Shown in pieces: positions 49,222-61,285 of a stretch of DNA of 64,000 nucleotides (within the stretch, counting starts at the first letter, position 1; each line of letters starts with the position of its first letter). Location of the stretch: the IMG/VR virus record IMGVR_UViG_3300025132_000029, one strand, 5' to 3'. The notes beneath the pieces were generated by a model that searched no databases, had not been told where the DNA came from, and saw only the letters and a list, made by a program, of their open reading frames with translations. Both the position numbers and the translations under genes were made by a program. This stretch comes from an uncultured virus (IMG/VR IMGVR_UViG_3300025132_000029). Taxonomy: Duplodnaviria > Heunggongvirae > Uroviricota > Caudoviricetes.

Positions 49222-49566
49222 ATGGGTAAATTAACCTTAGCGGTCCTGCTATTCTTAATAGGACAATCAATAATCTGGTTTCAGACCAACGGCCAATTCC
49301 TTTGGAAATGGTTCGACAAAAATCCAATAATTTTATCAATAGGACTAGGAAGTATAATTTCTTATGTCTTTATTTTAGCAACAAAATATTCTTTTGAGTA
49401 TTTTGATGGATTGTTATGGCCTGGTAGATTTTTAGGTTTTGCTTTGGGAATTAGTTCATATGCTTTATTGACTTGGTGGTTTATGGGTGAAGGTATTACA
49501 GCTAAAACATTTGTATCACTAATATTGGCAGGATTAATTATAGGAGTGCAAATTTTTTGGAAATAA
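49222..49566 (+). CDS. Small four-helix membrane protein (SMR/DMT-like)
   Basis: Four hydrophobic segments; WWFMGEGIT.K loop before the last helix. Confidence 0.65.
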   Translation: MGKLTLAVLLFLIGQSIIWFQTNGQFLWKWFDKNPIILSIGLGSIISYVFILATKYSFEYFDGLLWPGRFLGFALGISSYALLTWWFMGEGITAKTFVSLILAGLIIGVQIFWK

Positions 49567-49596
49567 TTTTTTATTGTCAAATAAATTTGTTATATT
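49562..49596 (+). promoter_or_regulatory. Putative class-2 promoter
   Basis: AATAATTTTTTATTGTCAAATAAATTTGTTATATT. Confidence 0.65.
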
Positions 49597-49626
49597 AGTA
49601 TTAACTAAAAAATAAAGGAGAAAAAC

Positions 49627-49800
49627 ATGGAACTTTTTGAAAAACTTCAAGACCTAGTAAATTCTACTCAAGCAGATATTGATAAATTCAATAGTGGAAA
49701 CAAATCTGCAGGAACACGAGTTAGAAAAGCTATGCAAGAAGTTAAAAACATTGCACAAGACGTAAGAATTGAAGTGCAAAACATTAAAAATGATAAATAA
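49627..49800 (+). CDS. Histone H1-like (Hc1-family) small protein, 57 aa (not in ORF track)
   Basis: MELFEKLQDLVNSTQADIDKFNSGNKSAGTRVRKAMQEVKNIAQDVRIEVQNIKNDK; GNKSAGTRVRK signature; AAGGAG SD. Confidence 0.8.
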   Translation: MELFEKLQDLVNSTQADIDKFNSGNKSAGTRVRKAMQEVKNIAQDVRIEVQNIKNDK

Positions 49801-50606: not shown

Positions 50607-51734
50607 ATGGCAAAGAAAGTAAATACAAAGAGAGATGATTTAGCAAATTTGTTGGCAGATAGTCTTAACAAAAAGTTTAAGGACTATAAAGTTGCTTACT
50701 TTCTTGACGGTACAGAAGAAACACCAACTGACTTAACAGAGTGGATTAGTACTGGGTCATCTATGCTTGACTTGGCAATTTCTAACAGAAAAAATGGTGG
50801 TATACCAGTTGGTAGAATTACTGAAATAACTGGTCTTGAAGGTAGTGGGAAGAGTCTTATGGCTGCTCACCTACTTGCAAATACACAAAAACAAGGTGGA
50901 CTTGCAGTTTACATTGATACAGAAAATGCAATGAATGAAGAATTTGCTACGGCAATTGGAATTGATGTTGCAAATATGTTATATATTCAATTGGAAACTG
51001 TTGAGGAAATTTTTGAGGTTATGGAAAACATCATCACTAAAGTTAGAGAAAGTGATAAAGATAGGCTTGTTACAATAGTTGTAGATTCATTGGCTGGCTC
51101 AACAACCAAAGTTGAGAGTGAGGCTGATTATAGCAAAGATGGCTGGGCAACCAGTAAGGCAATTATTTTATCAAAGGCTATGCGTAAGATTACTCAAATG
51201 ATAGGAAGGCAGAGAATTTGTCTCGTATTTACAAACCAACTTAGACAAAAGATGGGGGTTATGTTTGGTGATCCTTGGACTACATCTGGAGGTAAGGCAG
51301 TAGCTTTCCATTCCAGTTGTAGACTAAGGCTAAAACCTATGGGACAAATAAAAGCCAGAGTTGATGGTCAAGAACAAGTTATGGGTATTAAAACCGTTGC
51401 ACAAGTTGTAAAAAATAGAATGGGCCCACCATTAAGAAAGTCACAATTTGAAATTTATTTTGAAAGTGGTATTGATGATTTTGGTGGATGGTTACATGTT
51501 CTAAAAGATTACAAACTTGTTAAGCAAGGTGGTAGTTGGTACACATATACTGACCAAAATGGTAAGGACCATAAATTTATGTCAAAGGATTGGAATTCAT
51601 TATTGGAAAACAATGAAGAACTAAGAACAGAAATTTATGATAAAATTGCAGATACAATTATTATGAATTACAAAGTTGATAATTTTGGAATTGATGATGT
51701 TGAAATCAGCAGTGAACCAGTACCAGAAGGATAA
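50607..51734 (+). CDS. uvsX: RecA/UvsX recombinase
   Basis: GLEGSGKS Walker A, YIDTE, IVVDSLA, NQLR, TSGGKA, KNRMGPP. Confidence 0.95.
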   Translation: MAKKVNTKRDDLANLLADSLNKKFKDYKVAYFLDGTEETPTDLTEWISTGSSMLDLAISNRKNGGIPVGRITEITGLEGSGKSLMAAHLLANTQKQGGLAVYIDTENAMNEEFATAIGIDVANMLYIQLETVEEIFEVMENIITKVRESDKDRLVTIVVDSLAGSTTKVESEADYSKDGWATSKAIILSKAMRKITQMIGRQRICLVFTNQLRQKMGVMFGDPWTTSGGKAVAFHSSCRLRLKPMGQIKARVDGQEQVMGIKTVAQVVKNRMGPPLRKSQFEIYFESGIDDFGGWLHVLKDYKLVKQGGSWYTYTDQNGKDHKFMSKDWNSLLENNEELRTEIYDKIADTIIMNYKVDNFGIDDVEISSEPVPEG

Positions 51735-51746
51735 TAGGTTATGAAT

Positions 51747-51778
51747 AAGTAATTGGTGGCTAACCCCACCTTTTACTT
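51747..51778 (+). other. Stem-loop immediately 5' of the ribozyme cleavage site
   Basis: AAGTAA-tt-GGTGG-ctaacc-CCACC-tt-TTACTT. Confidence 0.65.
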
Positions 51779-51779
51779 C

Positions 51780-51870
51780 GTCTTACACAACAACAGCCTT
51801 CTCGTGGCGTAGGATGTTAAGGTCAAAAATCCGCACTTATCGAATGATTATTTGACCGACCAATGTTGTT
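51780..51870 (+). ncRNA. HDV-like (CPEB3-type) self-cleaving ribozyme
   Basis: P1 GUCUUAC/GUAGGAU with G1.U wobble; J1/2 AC; P2 AACAACA/UGUUGUU; P3 GCC/GGC; L3 UUCUCGU; GU after P1; P4 GGUCAAA...UUUGACC; J4/2 CCAA with candidate catalytic C51860. Confidence 0.85.
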
Positions 51871-51878
51871 AACGAGTG

Positions 51879-51998
51879 ATTTGTCTTTGGCCAAGTGACC
51901 CCAAAGCAAATTTATGATTAAGGTATATGTGGCTGATACCAATTGTTCTCTAATCGTCACTGTTGGAGATACTATAAACATATACTATGTCAGCTTGG
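51879..51998 (+). ncRNA. Unidentified multi-pseudoknot RNA domain downstream of the ribozyme
   Basis: Hairpins 51879-51911 and 51947-51969 with complementary loops (AGTGAC/GTCACT); crossing helices 51923-30/51978-85 and 51931-38/51988-95. Confidence 0.5.
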
Positions 51999-52037
51999 AA
52001 GCCCTGGATTTGTTTTATCAATGAAGGGGCTTTTTTT
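51999..52037 (+). terminator. Intrinsic terminator closing the uvsX-ribozyme transcript
   Basis: AAGCCCT...GGGGCTT followed by T tract. Confidence 0.6.
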
Positions 52038-52043
52038 ACCAAA

Positions 52044-52077
52044 AATATTTTTTTATCCCAAATAAAATAGTTATATT
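52044..52077 (+). promoter_or_regulatory. Putative class-2 promoter
   Basis: AATATTTTTTTATCCCAAATAAAATAGTTATATT. Confidence 0.55.
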
Positions 52078-52102
52078 ATACTAAACAAAAAGATAATAGC
52101 AT

Positions 52103-53152
52103 ATGTCAAAAAGCAGATACTTTTCAATACTTGAAACACTACAGGAGAATACTGATACTCCTTCTAACCCCAATGATAGAATATTAATCGTTGACGGGCT
52201 AAATACATTTATCAGAGCATTTGCAGCAAACCCAGTAACAAATGAAGATGGAATACATGTTGGTGGAATAACTGGTACACTAATGTCAATTGGATACGCA
52301 ATAAAACAAATTAAACCAACACGTGTTATTATTTGTTTTGATGGAAAAGGTGGTAGCCAAAGAAGAAGAAAAATATTTCCAGATTATAAAGCAAATCGTA
52401 GAGTAAAATCTAGGCTTACACGGCATGGAAATCATAATACAATGGAAGATGAATCATTGTCTATGAAACAACAATTAATGAGGTGTGCTCAATATTTACA
52501 ACAATTACCAGTTACTGTTTTAAGTGTTGAAAATATTGAAGCAGATGATAGTATGGCATATATTTCTCAACAGGTATATCCTGATAGTCAAAAGTTTATT
52601 ATGTCAACAGATAGGGATTTTTTACAATTAGTATCTGACAAAGTACATGTATGGTCACCAACAAAAAAGAAGTTTTATTTTAAGGAAACAATAATGGAAG
52701 AGTATGGTATACCATCTCATAACTTTTTATTATATAGAACAATTGAAGGTGATTCATCTGATAATATTCCAGGAATTAGAGGTGCAGGTAGAAAAACTAT
52801 TGCAAATAGAATTCCTATAATAACAGAGAACAGGACAGTAACTATTGATGAAATAATTGATTTTACAGCACAAAATTCAAAATATAAAATATTAAAAACA
52901 ATTTCTGAATCAAAAGAATTGTTAGATATGAATTATAAATTAATGCAATTGGATGAGGTAGATATATCAGGTTCAGCAAAGACAAAGATAATGAATACGG
53001 TAAGGTCACCTATCCAACGATTAGTAAAATATGAATTTCAAAAAATGATTTTAGAAGACAAAATCAATGGTTCAATTAAAAACCCAGACTTATGGTTAAA
53101 GCAAGTATTTTTACCATTAGACTCTTATGCAGGAATGACAAATGACAAGTAG
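52103..53152 (+). CDS. 5'-3' exonuclease / T4 RNase H-like flap endonuclease
   Basis: LIVDGLN, CFDG, YKANR, EADD, STDRDFLQL, GDSSDNIPGIRGAG.KT. Confidence 0.93.
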   Translation: MSKSRYFSILETLQENTDTPSNPNDRILIVDGLNTFIRAFAANPVTNEDGIHVGGITGTLMSIGYAIKQIKPTRVIICFDGKGGSQRRRKIFPDYKANRRVKSRLTRHGNHNTMEDESLSMKQQLMRCAQYLQQLPVTVLSVENIEADDSMAYISQQVYPDSQKFIMSTDRDFLQLVSDKVHVWSPTKKKFYFKETIMEEYGIPSHNFLLYRTIEGDSSDNIPGIRGAGRKTIANRIPIITENRTVTIDEIIDFTAQNSKYKILKTISESKELLDMNYKLMQLDEVDISGSAKTKIMNTVRSPIQRLVKYEFQKMILEDKINGSIKNPDLWLKQVFLPLDSYAGMTNDK

Positions 53153-60673: not shown

Positions 60674-60851
60674 AAAAATAGTAAGAAAATGGAACCCAGA
60701 TTATAAAAAAGCATGGGTAAGGGTAGCTTTACAAAATGCATTAAGTACAATAGATTATGGTGAGCTATCAACTGCAAGTAAAAGACTTATATCTCAAGTA
60801 CTAGCAGAATGTGATATAAAGGCAAAGGAAAAAGAGGAGATGGTAAAATGA
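60666..60851 (+). CDS. Small hypothetical protein
   Basis: 61 aa, AAGGA SD, overlaps neighbours. Confidence 0.55.
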   Translation: MARKIVRKWNPDYKKAWVRVALQNALSTIDYGELSTASKRLISQVLAECDIKAKEKEEMVK

Positions 60852-61285
60852 AAATATCAAAAGTAAGAGAAGTAAAAACACCAACAAGAGCAAATAGTAC
60901 AGATGCAGGAATAGATTTTTTTGTACCTGAAGACACAAAGAAATTTACATTATCACCAGGAGATTCTTGTCTTATTCCATCAGGTGTAAAAGTAAATGTA
61001 CCTGAAGGGTTTGCTTTAGTAGCATTTAATAAATCAGGAGTTGCAGTTAAAAAATCTTTACATGTTGGTGCATGTGTAGTTGACTGTGGCTATCAAGGAG
61101 AAGTTCATATTAATCTAACAAATGTTGGTGATTGTGAAACTGATATAAATCCTGGTGATAAAATAGTTCAGTTTGTATTATTACCTTTAGGCAATCCTAA
61201 AGTAGAATTAGTAGAAGAAAGCAACTTATATGAATCAGAATCTTCAAGAGGTGAAGGAGGATTTGGAAGTACTGGGACTAAATAA
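60848..61285 (+). CDS. dut: Trimeric dUTPase-family pyrophosphatase
   Basis: AGIDF, NKSG, VVDCGYQGEV, GDKIVQ, RGEGGFGSTG. Confidence 0.92.
   Translation: MKISKVREVKTPTRANSTDAGIDFFVPEDTKKFTLSPGDSCLIPSGVKVNVPEGFALVAFNKSGVAVKKSLHVGACVVDCGYQGEVHINLTNVGDCETDINPGDKIVQFVLLPLGNPKVELVEESNLYESESSRGEGGFGSTGTK

What the first reader, a model, noticed from the sequence alone, without database searches (positions are those of the whole stretch)
51879..52037. Second, unidentified multi-pseudoknot RNA released by the ribozyme: a candidate ribozyme-processed phage ncRNA
Seen: hairpin A (ATTTG.CTTTGG/CCAAAG.CAAAT, 51879-51911) and hairpin B (TCTCTAAT/GTTGGAGA, 51947-69) have complementary loops (AGTGAC 51894-99, GTCACT 51956-61). 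Two 8-bp helices cross (GTATATGT 51923-30 with ACATATAC 51978-85; GGCTGATA 51931-38 with TGTCAGCT 51988-95), and a terminator follows. G.U pairs favour the + strand. Inference: self-cleavage would free an RNA of about 255 nt (51780 to about 52035) with a 5'-OH end, made of the ribozyme plus this compact domain. It could be a decoy, a nuclease-resistant RNA or a second catalytic RNA; I cannot match it to a known class. A 36-codon ORF (51914-52024, MIKVYVADTNCSLIVTVGDTINIYYVSLEALDLFYQ) with no SD spans the same domain and is an alternative or additional reading.
Basis: partly seen in the sequence, partly recalled or inferred. Interest (0 to 1): 0.8.

Follow-up and report, generated by a model that had tools for sequence, protein, structure and literature searches.

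The report
New structured RNA after phage recombinase
A roughly 125-base stretch just after the recombinase gene of an uncultured marine phage belongs to a previously uncatalogued family of intricately folded RNAs, which in this phage seems to be cut free by a neighbouring self-cleaving ribozyme; what it does is still unknown.

Summary
Window 51873-51997 is one of 41 distinct members of a conserved structured-RNA family of uncultured marine phages, one copy per phage contig, always after the RecA/UvsX-like recombinase gene. No Rfam 15 family matches. On 32 sequences, both hairpins, the 6-7 bp loop-loop kissing pair and the GTATATGT/ACATATAC helix all keep pairing through compensatory changes. 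Its 3' strand instead belongs to a closing stem P1 and a new helix Pz, both covarying, and GCUGANACCAA stays an invariant unpaired internal loop. The 36-codon ORF is not conserved. The domain does not depend on the HDV-like ribozyme: it lies upstream in 3 members, downstream in 6 and is absent in 32. In this phage, two metatranscriptome contigs of one study cover 51780-52006 with no mismatch. One ends exactly at the predicted cleavage site, and neither flanking gene is covered. Best reading: a discrete, stable non-coding RNA whose scaffold presents the invariant loop to an unknown partner. Rivals are a cis-acting 3'-UTR element and a read-through regulator of the downstream replication genes.

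The parts
50607..51734 (+). RecA/UvsX-like recombinase gene. In most relatives the RNA domain begins at or just after its stop codon.
   Evidence: PHROG phrog_97 UvsX-like recombinase, E 1.1e-74. Closest isolate is Microcystis phage Mel-JY01 at 54% identity.
51755..51779 (+). G+C-rich hairpin plus U-run closing the recombinase message, just 5' of the ribozyme cleavage site
   Evidence: Terminator-like site GGTGGCTAACCCCACC + TTTTACTTCG. Relatives L010 and L013-L018 also have a hairpin directly before the ribozyme.
51780..51870 (+). HDV-like self-cleaving ribozyme: P1 51780-86/51809-15, P3 51796-98/51806-08, P2 51789-95/51864-70. Predicted cut is 5' of G51780.
   Evidence: 25 distinct copies. 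On a MAFFT alignment of 20, 93.5% of cells pair and 10 of 27 pairs carry double changes against 3.8 in shuffles, 0 of 500. Rfam RF02682 scores only 15.5 bits, E 2.4. An RNA-library contig ends at 51780.
51873..51997 (+). The structured RNA domain, from the 5' strand to the 3' strand of closing stem P1
   Evidence: Covariance model R3: 80.8 bits, E 7e-15. 32-sequence alignment A8: 87.1% of cells paired against 67.9% shuffled, 275 double-change cells against 87, 0 of 500.
51873..51877 (+). P1 5' strand CGAGU, pairing with GCUUG 51993-51997
   Evidence: 5 of 7 P1 pairs carry double changes. The innermost pair is U.G in 25, C-G in 5 and U-A in 2 sequences, never unpaired. Stems reach 14-15 bp in L004 and the group with the ribozyme downstream.
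51885..51906 (+). The extension 51879-83/51907-11 is specific to this phage and weaker in L002.
   Evidence: 6 of 6 pairs with double changes. L002 has A.A at the extension.
51894..51899 (+). Loop-A half of the kissing interaction (AGUGAC), pairing with GUCACU 51956-51961 in loop B
   Evidence: Not in any model. 4 of 7 pairs carry double changes, for example GC18/AU9/UA5. RNAalifold found it unaided on a MAFFT alignment. Variants are UAUAGC/GCUAUA, UGAUGGC/GUCAUCA and UAUAGU/ACUAUA.
51915..51918 (+). Pz 5' strand (UGAU), pairing with GUCA 51989-51992. It is only 4 bp here and 7 bp in most relatives.
   Evidence: Not in any model. 86.2% of cells paired and 4 of 7 pairs with double changes.
51923..51985 (+).
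   Evidence: Px has 4 of 6 and P3b 5 of 6 pairs with double changes. GCUGAnACCAAugU and AcUagaa are among the 20 positions conserved in at least 97% of sequences.
51999..52037 (+). Terminator-like stem 51999-52005/52026-52032 with a U7 tract
   Evidence: Read from the sequence and the fold. The consensus scan did not list it because its loop exceeds 8 nt. 23 of 41 members have a run of at least 5 T within 75 nt after the domain.
52043..52096 (+). Promoter-like box before the exonuclease gene (52103-53152)
   Evidence: Conserved in L002-L005 and repeated near window 49548-49630 and upstream of other genes in relatives.
51914..52024 (+). 36-codon ORF, rejected as a gene
   Evidence: Its frame is open with a start in 4 of 32 members, and no frame is conserved. 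No PHROG family.

Best explanation
Window 51873-51997 encodes one member of a new family of compactly folded non-coding RNAs. They sit at the 3' end of the SSB-recombinase transcription unit of a lineage of uncultured marine phages. Shown: the fold has a closing stem P1, a hairpin P2, and a helix Pz leading to an arm P3 (helix Px, a large invariant internal loop, hairpin P3b). The loops of P2 and P3b pair over 6-7 bp, which holds the two arms side by side. Shown weakly: in this phage the RNA exists as a discrete species that starts at the HDV-like ribozyme cut (G51780) and runs to the terminator, and it outlasts the flanking messages. Inferred: the scaffold presents the invariant unpaired nucleotides (GCUGANACCAAU opposite UAGAA, plus the YAGC junction) as a specific binding surface for a protein or small ligand. 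The RNA then works as a free-standing, trans-acting RNA whose ends are made by whatever lies beside it: a ribozyme upstream here, a ribozyme downstream in other lineages, an intrinsic terminator in most.
For: Family and fold: R1 found 27 matches at E<=0.005 in 85 sources, and pattern scans plus models raised this to 41 distinct members. On 32 sequences, 87.1% of cells pair against 67.9% in shuffles, with 275 double-change cells against 87 (0 of 500). The kissing pair and Pz were never in a model and still covary. Twenty positions are conserved in at least 97% of sequences and cluster in the internal loop. The + strand is favoured, 126 G.U against 21 A.C cells. There is one copy per phage record in 5 of 5 records. 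Independence from neighbours: the ribozyme lies upstream in 3, downstream in 6 and is absent in 32 of 41, yet helices keep compensatory changes between the window and L004, which both have the ribozyme between recombinase and domain. A function that needs covalent linkage to the recombinase message is therefore unlikely. Discrete RNA: RNA-library contigs cover 51780-51933 (depth 33) and 51856-52006 (depth 9.2) with no mismatch, and nothing at 99% identity or more covers the recombinase or exonuclease coding parts, which DNA runs do cover. The ribozyme fold itself covaries.
Against: No partner, ligand or target is known, so the function is inference only. The RNA evidence is two assembled contigs from one study. 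Contigs cannot show true ends or strand, and DNA can contaminate RNA libraries. In 38 of 41 members P1 starts within -6 to +14 nt of the recombinase stop codon with no visible 5' processing signal, which fits a plain 3'-UTR element equally well. In the L031 and L034 groups the terminator is followed within about 10-20 nt by the exonuclease ribosome-binding site, an arrangement typical of cis-regulatory leaders. Related phages have lost the domain, with deletion remnants in L007 and L022-L025 and 15-45 nt spacers in L045-L047, L063 and L072, so it is dispensable. The complement of the invariant loop occurs nowhere else in the window.
Confidence: 0.45

Rival explanations
1. It is a cis-acting 3'-UTR element of the recombinase (or SSB-recombinase) message. 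A compact fold begins at the stop codon and, with the terminator or the ribozyme-made 2',3'-cyclic phosphate end, protects the message from 3' exonucleases or couples its fate to translation termination.
For: P1 begins -6 to +14 nt from the stop codon in 38 of 41 members, and a terminator or ribozyme follows directly in most. Phages without the domain carry a plain hairpin before the ribozyme at the same place (L010, L013-L018).
Against: In the window, L002 and L004 a hairpin and a ribozyme separate the domain from the message, yet the domain stays under structural selection. An exonuclease block needs neither 20 invariant unpaired positions nor a kissing complex. RNA-library contigs cover the domain but not the recombinase coding part.
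Confidence: 0.2
2. It is a cis-regulatory leader for the downstream exonuclease-helicase-ribonucleotide reductase genes. It would be a riboswitch, a protein-dependent attenuator or a put-like antiterminator RNA that sets how much transcription passes the terminator right behind it.
For: The core looks like an aptamer: invariant loop and junction nucleotides held by covarying helices and a kissing pair. In most members a terminator starts 1-4 nt after P1. In the L031 and L034 groups the exonuclease start follows the terminator within about 10-20 nt with no room for a promoter, so these genes must be read through it.
Against: I found no conserved alternative (antiterminator) pairing by eye, and one candidate in L034 is absent in L039. 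In the window, L003 and L006 types a promoter-like box lies between terminator and exonuclease gene. Six members have a ribozyme instead of a terminator, which would cut the RNA from the polymerase, and two (L166, L320) have neither.
Confidence: 0.17
3. It is a second catalytic RNA, a new self-cleaving or otherwise reactive ribozyme class, paired with the HDV-like ribozyme.
For: A multi-helix junction locked by loop-loop pairing around invariant unpaired purine-rich strands resembles small ribozymes in outline. It lies 3-6 nt from a ribozyme in 9 members.
Against: No Rfam ribozyme family matches, even at E up to 10. The strands flanking CUGA and GAAA pair with each other (Px), which is not the hammerhead topology. 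An RNA-library contig spans 51856-52006 unbroken, though contigs cannot exclude cleavage.
Confidence: 0.04
4. The region encodes the 36-residue peptide MIKVYV... and the conservation is of coding type.
For: There is an ATG-started open frame at 51914-52024.
Against: The frame is open with a start codon in only 4 of 32 members, no frame is open across the core in all, and relatives differ by indels that are not multiples of three. No PHROG family matches and no Shine-Dalgarno motif is present. The substitutions are paired helix changes, not third-codon changes.
Confidence: 0.01
5. The signal is a DNA-level element, such as an origin or a recombination or packaging site, or a chance set of inverted repeats.
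For: Single-sequence folding energy is not significant.
Against: G.U-tolerant changes are strand-specific, with 87.1% of cells paired on + against 78.8% on -. There are 275 double-change cells against 87 expected, and RNA-library contigs cover the region.
Confidence: 0.02

Closest known systems
Purine-riboswitch-type 'tuning fork' RNAs: a junction with two parallel hairpins joined by kissing loops (architecture recalled, not from a call)
   Same: A closing stem P1 with two arms whose terminal loops pair. Conserved unpaired nucleotides sit near the junction, and an intrinsic terminator often follows.
   Different: No sequence or model similarity to any Rfam riboswitch. The kissing helix is 6-7 Watson-Crick pairs. 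There is an extra helix Pz and an optional hairpin P2a. The invariant nucleotides lie in an internal loop of one arm. No switching expression platform was found, and the element lies after a gene rather than only before one.
HDV-like (theta) ribozymes next to tRNA genes in phages (PMC10879173: search listing, abstract and two passages seen)
   Same: A phage uses an HDV-like ribozyme beside a stable structured RNA gene. In relatives L010, L030, L094 and L098 the same ribozyme family is followed by tRNA-Ala.
   Different: The RNA processed here is not a tRNA, and the ribozyme may lie on either side of it or be absent. The abstract places theta ribozymes next to viral tRNAs in gut phages, whereas these contigs are marine.
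3'-UTR-derived bacterial small RNAs and the stable non-tRNA species of the phage T4 tRNA cluster (recalled)
   Same: A discrete stable RNA is made from the tail of a protein-coding transcription unit and ends at its terminator, in a locus that also houses tRNA genes in relatives.
   Different: The fold is far more elaborate, with six covarying helices. Release is by a ribozyme in some lineages. No Hfq-type seed-and-terminator layout is shown and no target is known.
put RNA of phage HK022, a cis-acting antiterminator RNA (recalled)
   Same: A phage-encoded structured RNA placed just before terminators inside an operon of early genes.
   Different: No sequence relation was tested because no model was at hand. 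A ribozyme downstream of the domain in six members would cut it from the polymerase.
Catalogue of 8,495 candidate structured RNAs from IMG/VR 3 intergenic regions (PMC10690425: passages and readable supplements searched)
   Same: It draws on the same kind of data (IMG/VR phage contigs), so this motif or a part of it may be among the unnamed 'DNAVirus_N' candidates.
   Different: The main text mentions neither recA, recombinase, HDV nor kissing. The core motif strings and six of the sample numbers are absent from the readable tables. The alignment and model archives could not be read, so prior listing cannot be excluded. No function or structure description for it was seen.

Membership tests
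Any Rfam 15 family | Match at or above the family's gathering score | tested here: not met
   0 matches in the whole window. At E up to 10 on 51650-52150, the only hit over the domain is a chance-level snoRNA hit, E 0.44. Six homologous loci gave nothing over the domain at E up to 1.
HDV-like ribozyme (the upstream neighbour, not the domain) | Nested double pseudoknot P1/P2/P3/P4 with cleavage 5' of P1 | tested here: met
   On 20 sequences 93.5% of cells pair and 10 of 27 pairs have double changes, including in the crossing helices P1 and P2. An RNA-library contig ends at G51780. The Rfam model RF02682 is not reached, 15.5 against 44 bits.
Riboswitch | Conserved aptamer core held by covarying helices | tested here: met
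Riboswitch | Expression platform with mutually exclusive pairing, upstream of the regulated gene | tested here: inconclusive
   A terminator follows in most members, and the exonuclease start is close in the L031 and L034 groups. No conserved alternative pairing was seen by eye, and 8 of 41 members lack a terminator. No systematic search for alternative folds was run.
Riboswitch | Specific ligand binding | not testable with these tools
   Needs in-line probing or a similar assay.
Hammerhead ribozyme | Core CUGANGA ... GAAA between three stems in the order I-II-III | tested here: not met
   The core reads CUGANAC. The strands before CUGA and after GAAA pair with each other (Px), which the hammerhead topology forbids. 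No Rfam hit.
Small protein gene | Open frame conserved among relatives, with codon-type substitution | tested here: not met
   The frame is open with a start in 4 of 32 members. No PHROG family.
Mimic of a ribosomal RNA segment | Significant profile similarity to rRNA | tested here: not met
   An nhmmer profile of A8 against the E. coli rrnH operon fetched by tool gave a best E of 3.1, outside the region in question.
Intrinsic terminator (element after the domain) | G+C-rich stem followed by a U-tract | tested here: inconclusive
   A 7-bp stem with U7 is seen in the sequence and the fold, but the consensus scan did not list it because the loop is 20 nt.

The most novel reading that the evidence does not exclude
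The domain is a new ligand- or protein-binding aptamer class used by phages as a free RNA. It could be a riboswitch-like sensor of a nucleotide-related metabolite that sets read-through into the replication genes. More boldly, it could be a ribozyme-released decoy or sponge RNA that sequesters a host factor or a defence signal during infection.
Probability: 0.12. Interest if true: 0.85.

Novelty: new variant of a known kind. Interest (0 to 1): 0.62.

Why it matters
Orphan RNAs with this much covarying tertiary structure are rare, and several earlier ones proved to be riboswitches, ribozymes or protein regulators. This one has six covarying helices, a 6-7 bp kissing complex and about 20 invariant unpaired or junction nucleotides. 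It is also small enough (about 125 nt) for direct biochemistry. It shows a modular use of HDV-like ribozymes in marine phages, where the same ribozyme family trims either end of a structured RNA or precedes a tRNA. That widens the known role of these ribozymes beyond tRNA processing in gut phages. It also marks the recombinase-exonuclease spacer as a hot spot where these phages keep their stable RNA genes.

Tried and rejected
1. Nucleotide search of the 368-nt spacer against 50,697 phage records found no match. The nearest isolate, Mel-JY01, has a 68-nt spacer without the domain.
2. The first exact pattern gave 13 hits, 8 of them chance matches in coding-like DNA. The later patterns also gave chance hits: 5 of 21, 31 of 62 and 58 of 80 fetched.
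4. P1 tested at fixed columns of an alignment not fitted to it looked poor. It was resolved by per-sequence duplex search and by a model that includes P1.
5. A second model hit in the window (61069-61192, E 0.03-0.24) lies inside a 145-codon ORF and lacks hairpin B, so it is chance.
6. Weak model hits upstream of the recombinase in L248, L251, L253 and L256 are other small hairpins, not the domain.
7. The complement of the invariant loop occurs nowhere else in the window.
8. The idea that the P3 arm mimics a 23S rRNA segment, a recalled resemblance, was rejected by profile search of an rRNA operon fetched by tool.
9. I considered k-turn, hammerhead, hairpin-ribozyme, tRNA-like and Y-RNA-like readings by eye. 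The topology or conserved positions do not fit, and Rfam gives no hit.
10. A candidate antiterminator pairing in L034 is not conserved in L039.
11. RNA-library parts without cover, namely the recombinase and exonuclease coding parts and 52007-52037, rest on contigs only and prove nothing by themselves.
12. Earlier notes of this scan held nothing.
13. Literature searches found no description of this motif. The archives of PMC10690425 that hold alignments could not be read.

Full report
**Setting.** The finding lies in the 368-nt spacer between a RecA/UvsX-like recombinase gene (50607-51734) and a 5'-3' exonuclease gene (52103-53152). An SSB gene lies upstream, and a DnaB-like helicase and a ribonucleotide reductase lie downstream. 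The window is part of a 170-kb IMG/VR phage contig. By recombinase protein the nearest isolate is Microcystis phage Mel-JY01 at only 54% identity. That phage has the same gene order but a 68-nt spacer. The spacer matches no nucleotide sequence among 50,697 phage records.

**Layout of the spacer.**
- A G+C hairpin with a U-run sits at 51755-79.
- An HDV-like ribozyme spans 51780-51870.
- The domain in question spans 51873-51997.
- A stem with a U7 tract follows at 51999-52037.
- A promoter-like box at 52043-96 recurs near 49548-49630 and in relatives.

**Checking the observation.**
- All quoted strings are at the stated coordinates.
- Thermodynamics of this single sequence are unremarkable. The domain folds at z -0.97 and the whole spacer at z -1.86 on the + strand, against -0.88 on the - strand.
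- Rfam 15 gives nothing at gathering thresholds for the window.
- At E up to 10 there is only a chance-level snoRNA hit over the domain, plus a sub-threshold HDV hit at 51780-51827.

**Relatives.**
- The recombinase protein retrieved 80 loci out of 431 relatives in IMG/VR. BLASTN saw the domain in only five of them.
- An alignment of those five showed conserved blocks (TTGG..GTGACCCCAA, GCTGATACCAA, GTCAC) and compensatory changes in both hairpins. L003 had the domain but no ribozyme.
- Pattern scans anchored on these blocks found more members, along with chance hits in coding DNA.
- A covariance model was built from six sequences with only the nested helices P2, P2a, Px and P3b (R1). It found 27 matches at E<=0.005 in 85 sources, 22 of them among the 80 recombinase loci.
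- The model also picked 31 true members out of 62 pattern hits.
- It found 12 members among the 80 closest relatives of a second recombinase.
- In all there are 41 distinct sequences.
- Five phage records of 51-171 kb each hold exactly one copy.

**Structure.** On alignment A8 (32 distinct sequences aligned to R3) the proposed structure pairs 87.1% of cells against 67.9% in column shuffles. It has 275 double-change cells against 87, with 0 of 500 shuffles reaching either value. Sliding the partners by 1-3 columns drops pairing to 30-46%.

| Helix | Pairs with changes on both sides | Fitted by a model? |
|---|---|---|
| P1 | 5 of 7 | R3 only |
| P2 (hairpin A) | 6 of 6 | yes |
| Loop-loop kissing pair | 4 of 7 | never |
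| Pz | 4 of 7 | never |
| Px | 4 of 6 | yes |
| P3b (hairpin B) | 5 of 6 | yes |

Source.

- P2, Px and P3b were fitted by the models, so their counts lean towards the structure. The MAFFT alignments made before any model already showed their compensatory changes.
- The kissing pair and Pz owe nothing to model fitting. RNAalifold picked the kissing helix unaided on a MAFFT alignment, with pair types GC6/AU3 and GC8/AU1.
- Whole lineages carry different kissing sequences: GUGAC/GUCAC, UGAUGGC/GUCAUCA, UAUAGC/GCUAUA and UAUAGU/ACUAUA. One clade has lost one nucleotide from each loop at paired positions.

**The rejected helix.**
- The GC of its 3' strand belongs to P1. The innermost P1 pair is U.G in 25, C-G in 5 and U-A in 2 sequences, and it is never unpaired.
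- The bases just upstream of that GC pair with the P2-to-P3 linker to form Pz.
- The fold therefore has one tertiary, pseudoknot-type contact, the kissing loops, and not two crossing helices.
- GCUGANACCAAU is left as the 5' side of a large internal loop opposite UAGAA.
- Twenty positions are conserved in at least 97% of sequences, mostly in that loop.
- G.U cells outnumber A.C cells 126 to 21, which places the RNA on the + strand, the strand of the genes.

**The ORF.** The 36-codon frame is open with a start codon in 4 of 32 members. No frame is open across the core in all of them, and the peptide matches no PHROG family. The peptide reading is rejected.

**Relation to the ribozyme.**
- The upstream element is a sound HDV-like ribozyme. 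There are 25 distinct copies.
- On a MAFFT alignment of 20, 93.5% of cells pair and 10 of 27 pairs carry double changes against 3.8 in shuffles. These include the crossing helices P1 and P2.
- The domain is not tied to it. The ribozyme lies upstream in 3 members (window, L002, L004), directly downstream in 6 and is absent in 32. In L094 and L098 the downstream ribozyme is followed by tRNA-Ala.
- In 38 of 41 members P1 starts between -6 and +14 nt from the recombinase stop codon. A terminator follows in most.
- Related phages lack the domain altogether or keep deletion remnants.

**RNA evidence.**
- Two metatranscriptome runs of one study hold part of the stretch.
- One contig (157 nt, depth 33) matches 51780-51933 without mismatch. 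Its matched part ends exactly at the predicted cleavage site.
- The other (153 nt, depth 9.2) matches 51856-52006 without mismatch.
- Neither run has identical cover of the recombinase or exonuclease coding parts, which DNA runs do cover.
- These are assembled contigs, so true ends, strand and level are not shown.

**Function.**
- The domain is under structural selection whether or not a ribozyme cuts it from the recombinase message, and whether a terminator or a ribozyme makes its 3' end. I therefore favour a free-standing stable RNA whose scaffold presents the invariant loop to a partner (0.45).
- A cis-acting 3'-UTR role (0.2) fits the position at the stop codon. It fits poorly with the ribozyme-interrupted lineages and with the invariant loop.
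- A read-through regulator of the exonuclease-helicase-reductase genes (0.17) is suggested by the L031 and L034 groups, where the exonuclease start follows the terminator within about 10-20 nt. I found no conserved alternative pairing, other lineages have a promoter-like box, and some lack a terminator.
- A new ribozyme (0.04), the peptide (0.01) and a DNA-level or chance signal (0.02) are unlikely.

**Prior knowledge.**
- No Rfam family matches.
- My searches of the held literature found no description of the motif.
- A 2023 catalogue of 8,495 unnamed candidate RNAs from IMG/VR may contain it. The readable tables do not show it, and the alignment archives could not be read.
- The comparisons with purine-type riboswitch architecture, put RNA, 3'-UTR-derived small RNAs and T4 stable RNAs are recalled, not tested.

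Noticed in passing
L055:4128-4370, and the same place in L059, L065, L066, L070 and L078: Directly after the recombinase stop these phages carry an RNA-like element of about 240 nt. Its ends pair like an acceptor stem next to a GGTTCGAATCC T-arm. ARAGORN calls neither a tRNA nor a tmRNA, and Rfam has no hit at E up to 0.1 for the two loci scanned (L055, L065). It may be another uncatalogued tRNA-like RNA.
   Followed up: partly
L010:1814-1992, L030, L094:717-896, L098: The same HDV-like ribozyme family is followed within a few bases by tRNA-Ala(UGC). The ribozyme precedes the tRNA instead of following it. ARAGORN was run on L010 and L094; L030 and L098 were read by eye.
   Followed up: partly
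L241-L258, locus positions about 580-690 (SSB-recombinase spacer): More distant relatives hold variable inserts between short flanking repeats (TAGTG...CACTAT) just before the recombinase ribosome-binding site. The inserts are hairpins, and in L249 a tRNA-Ala. They gave weak false hits with the domain model.
   Followed up: partly
L007, L022, L023, L025 (recombinase-exonuclease spacer): These are short spacers that keep only the 3' end of the domain (..ACTATTAGC) before the terminator. They look like internal deletions of the domain.
   Followed up: no
L048, L052, L057, L058, L070, L074 (about 1 kb downstream of the recombinase): About 2 kb of extra genes lies between the recombinase and the exonuclease, with a copy of the HDV-like ribozyme inside the insert.
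   Followed up: no
window 52043-52096 and 49548-49630: A promoter-like box (AATTTTTT..CAAATA..TT.GTTATATT) recurs about 35 nt before gene starts and is conserved in relatives. It is probably a phage-specific promoter class.
   Followed up: partly
L060, L062, L064 (recombinase-exonuclease spacer): These hold a different G+C-rich structured spacer (GGGAGG...CCCTCCCC) plus a long perfect hairpin (GGGTGACAAATAGTC...GACAAATTGTCACC). Rfam has no hit for L060.
   Followed up: no
window 60848-61285: A 145-codon ORF ending in a GFGSTG-like motif looks like a dUTPase by recall. No family search was run. It holds the chance hit of the RNA model.
   Followed up: no
L042:3421-3649: A small ORF of about 70 codons sits between the recombinase and the exonuclease in place of any RNA element.
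   Followed up: no
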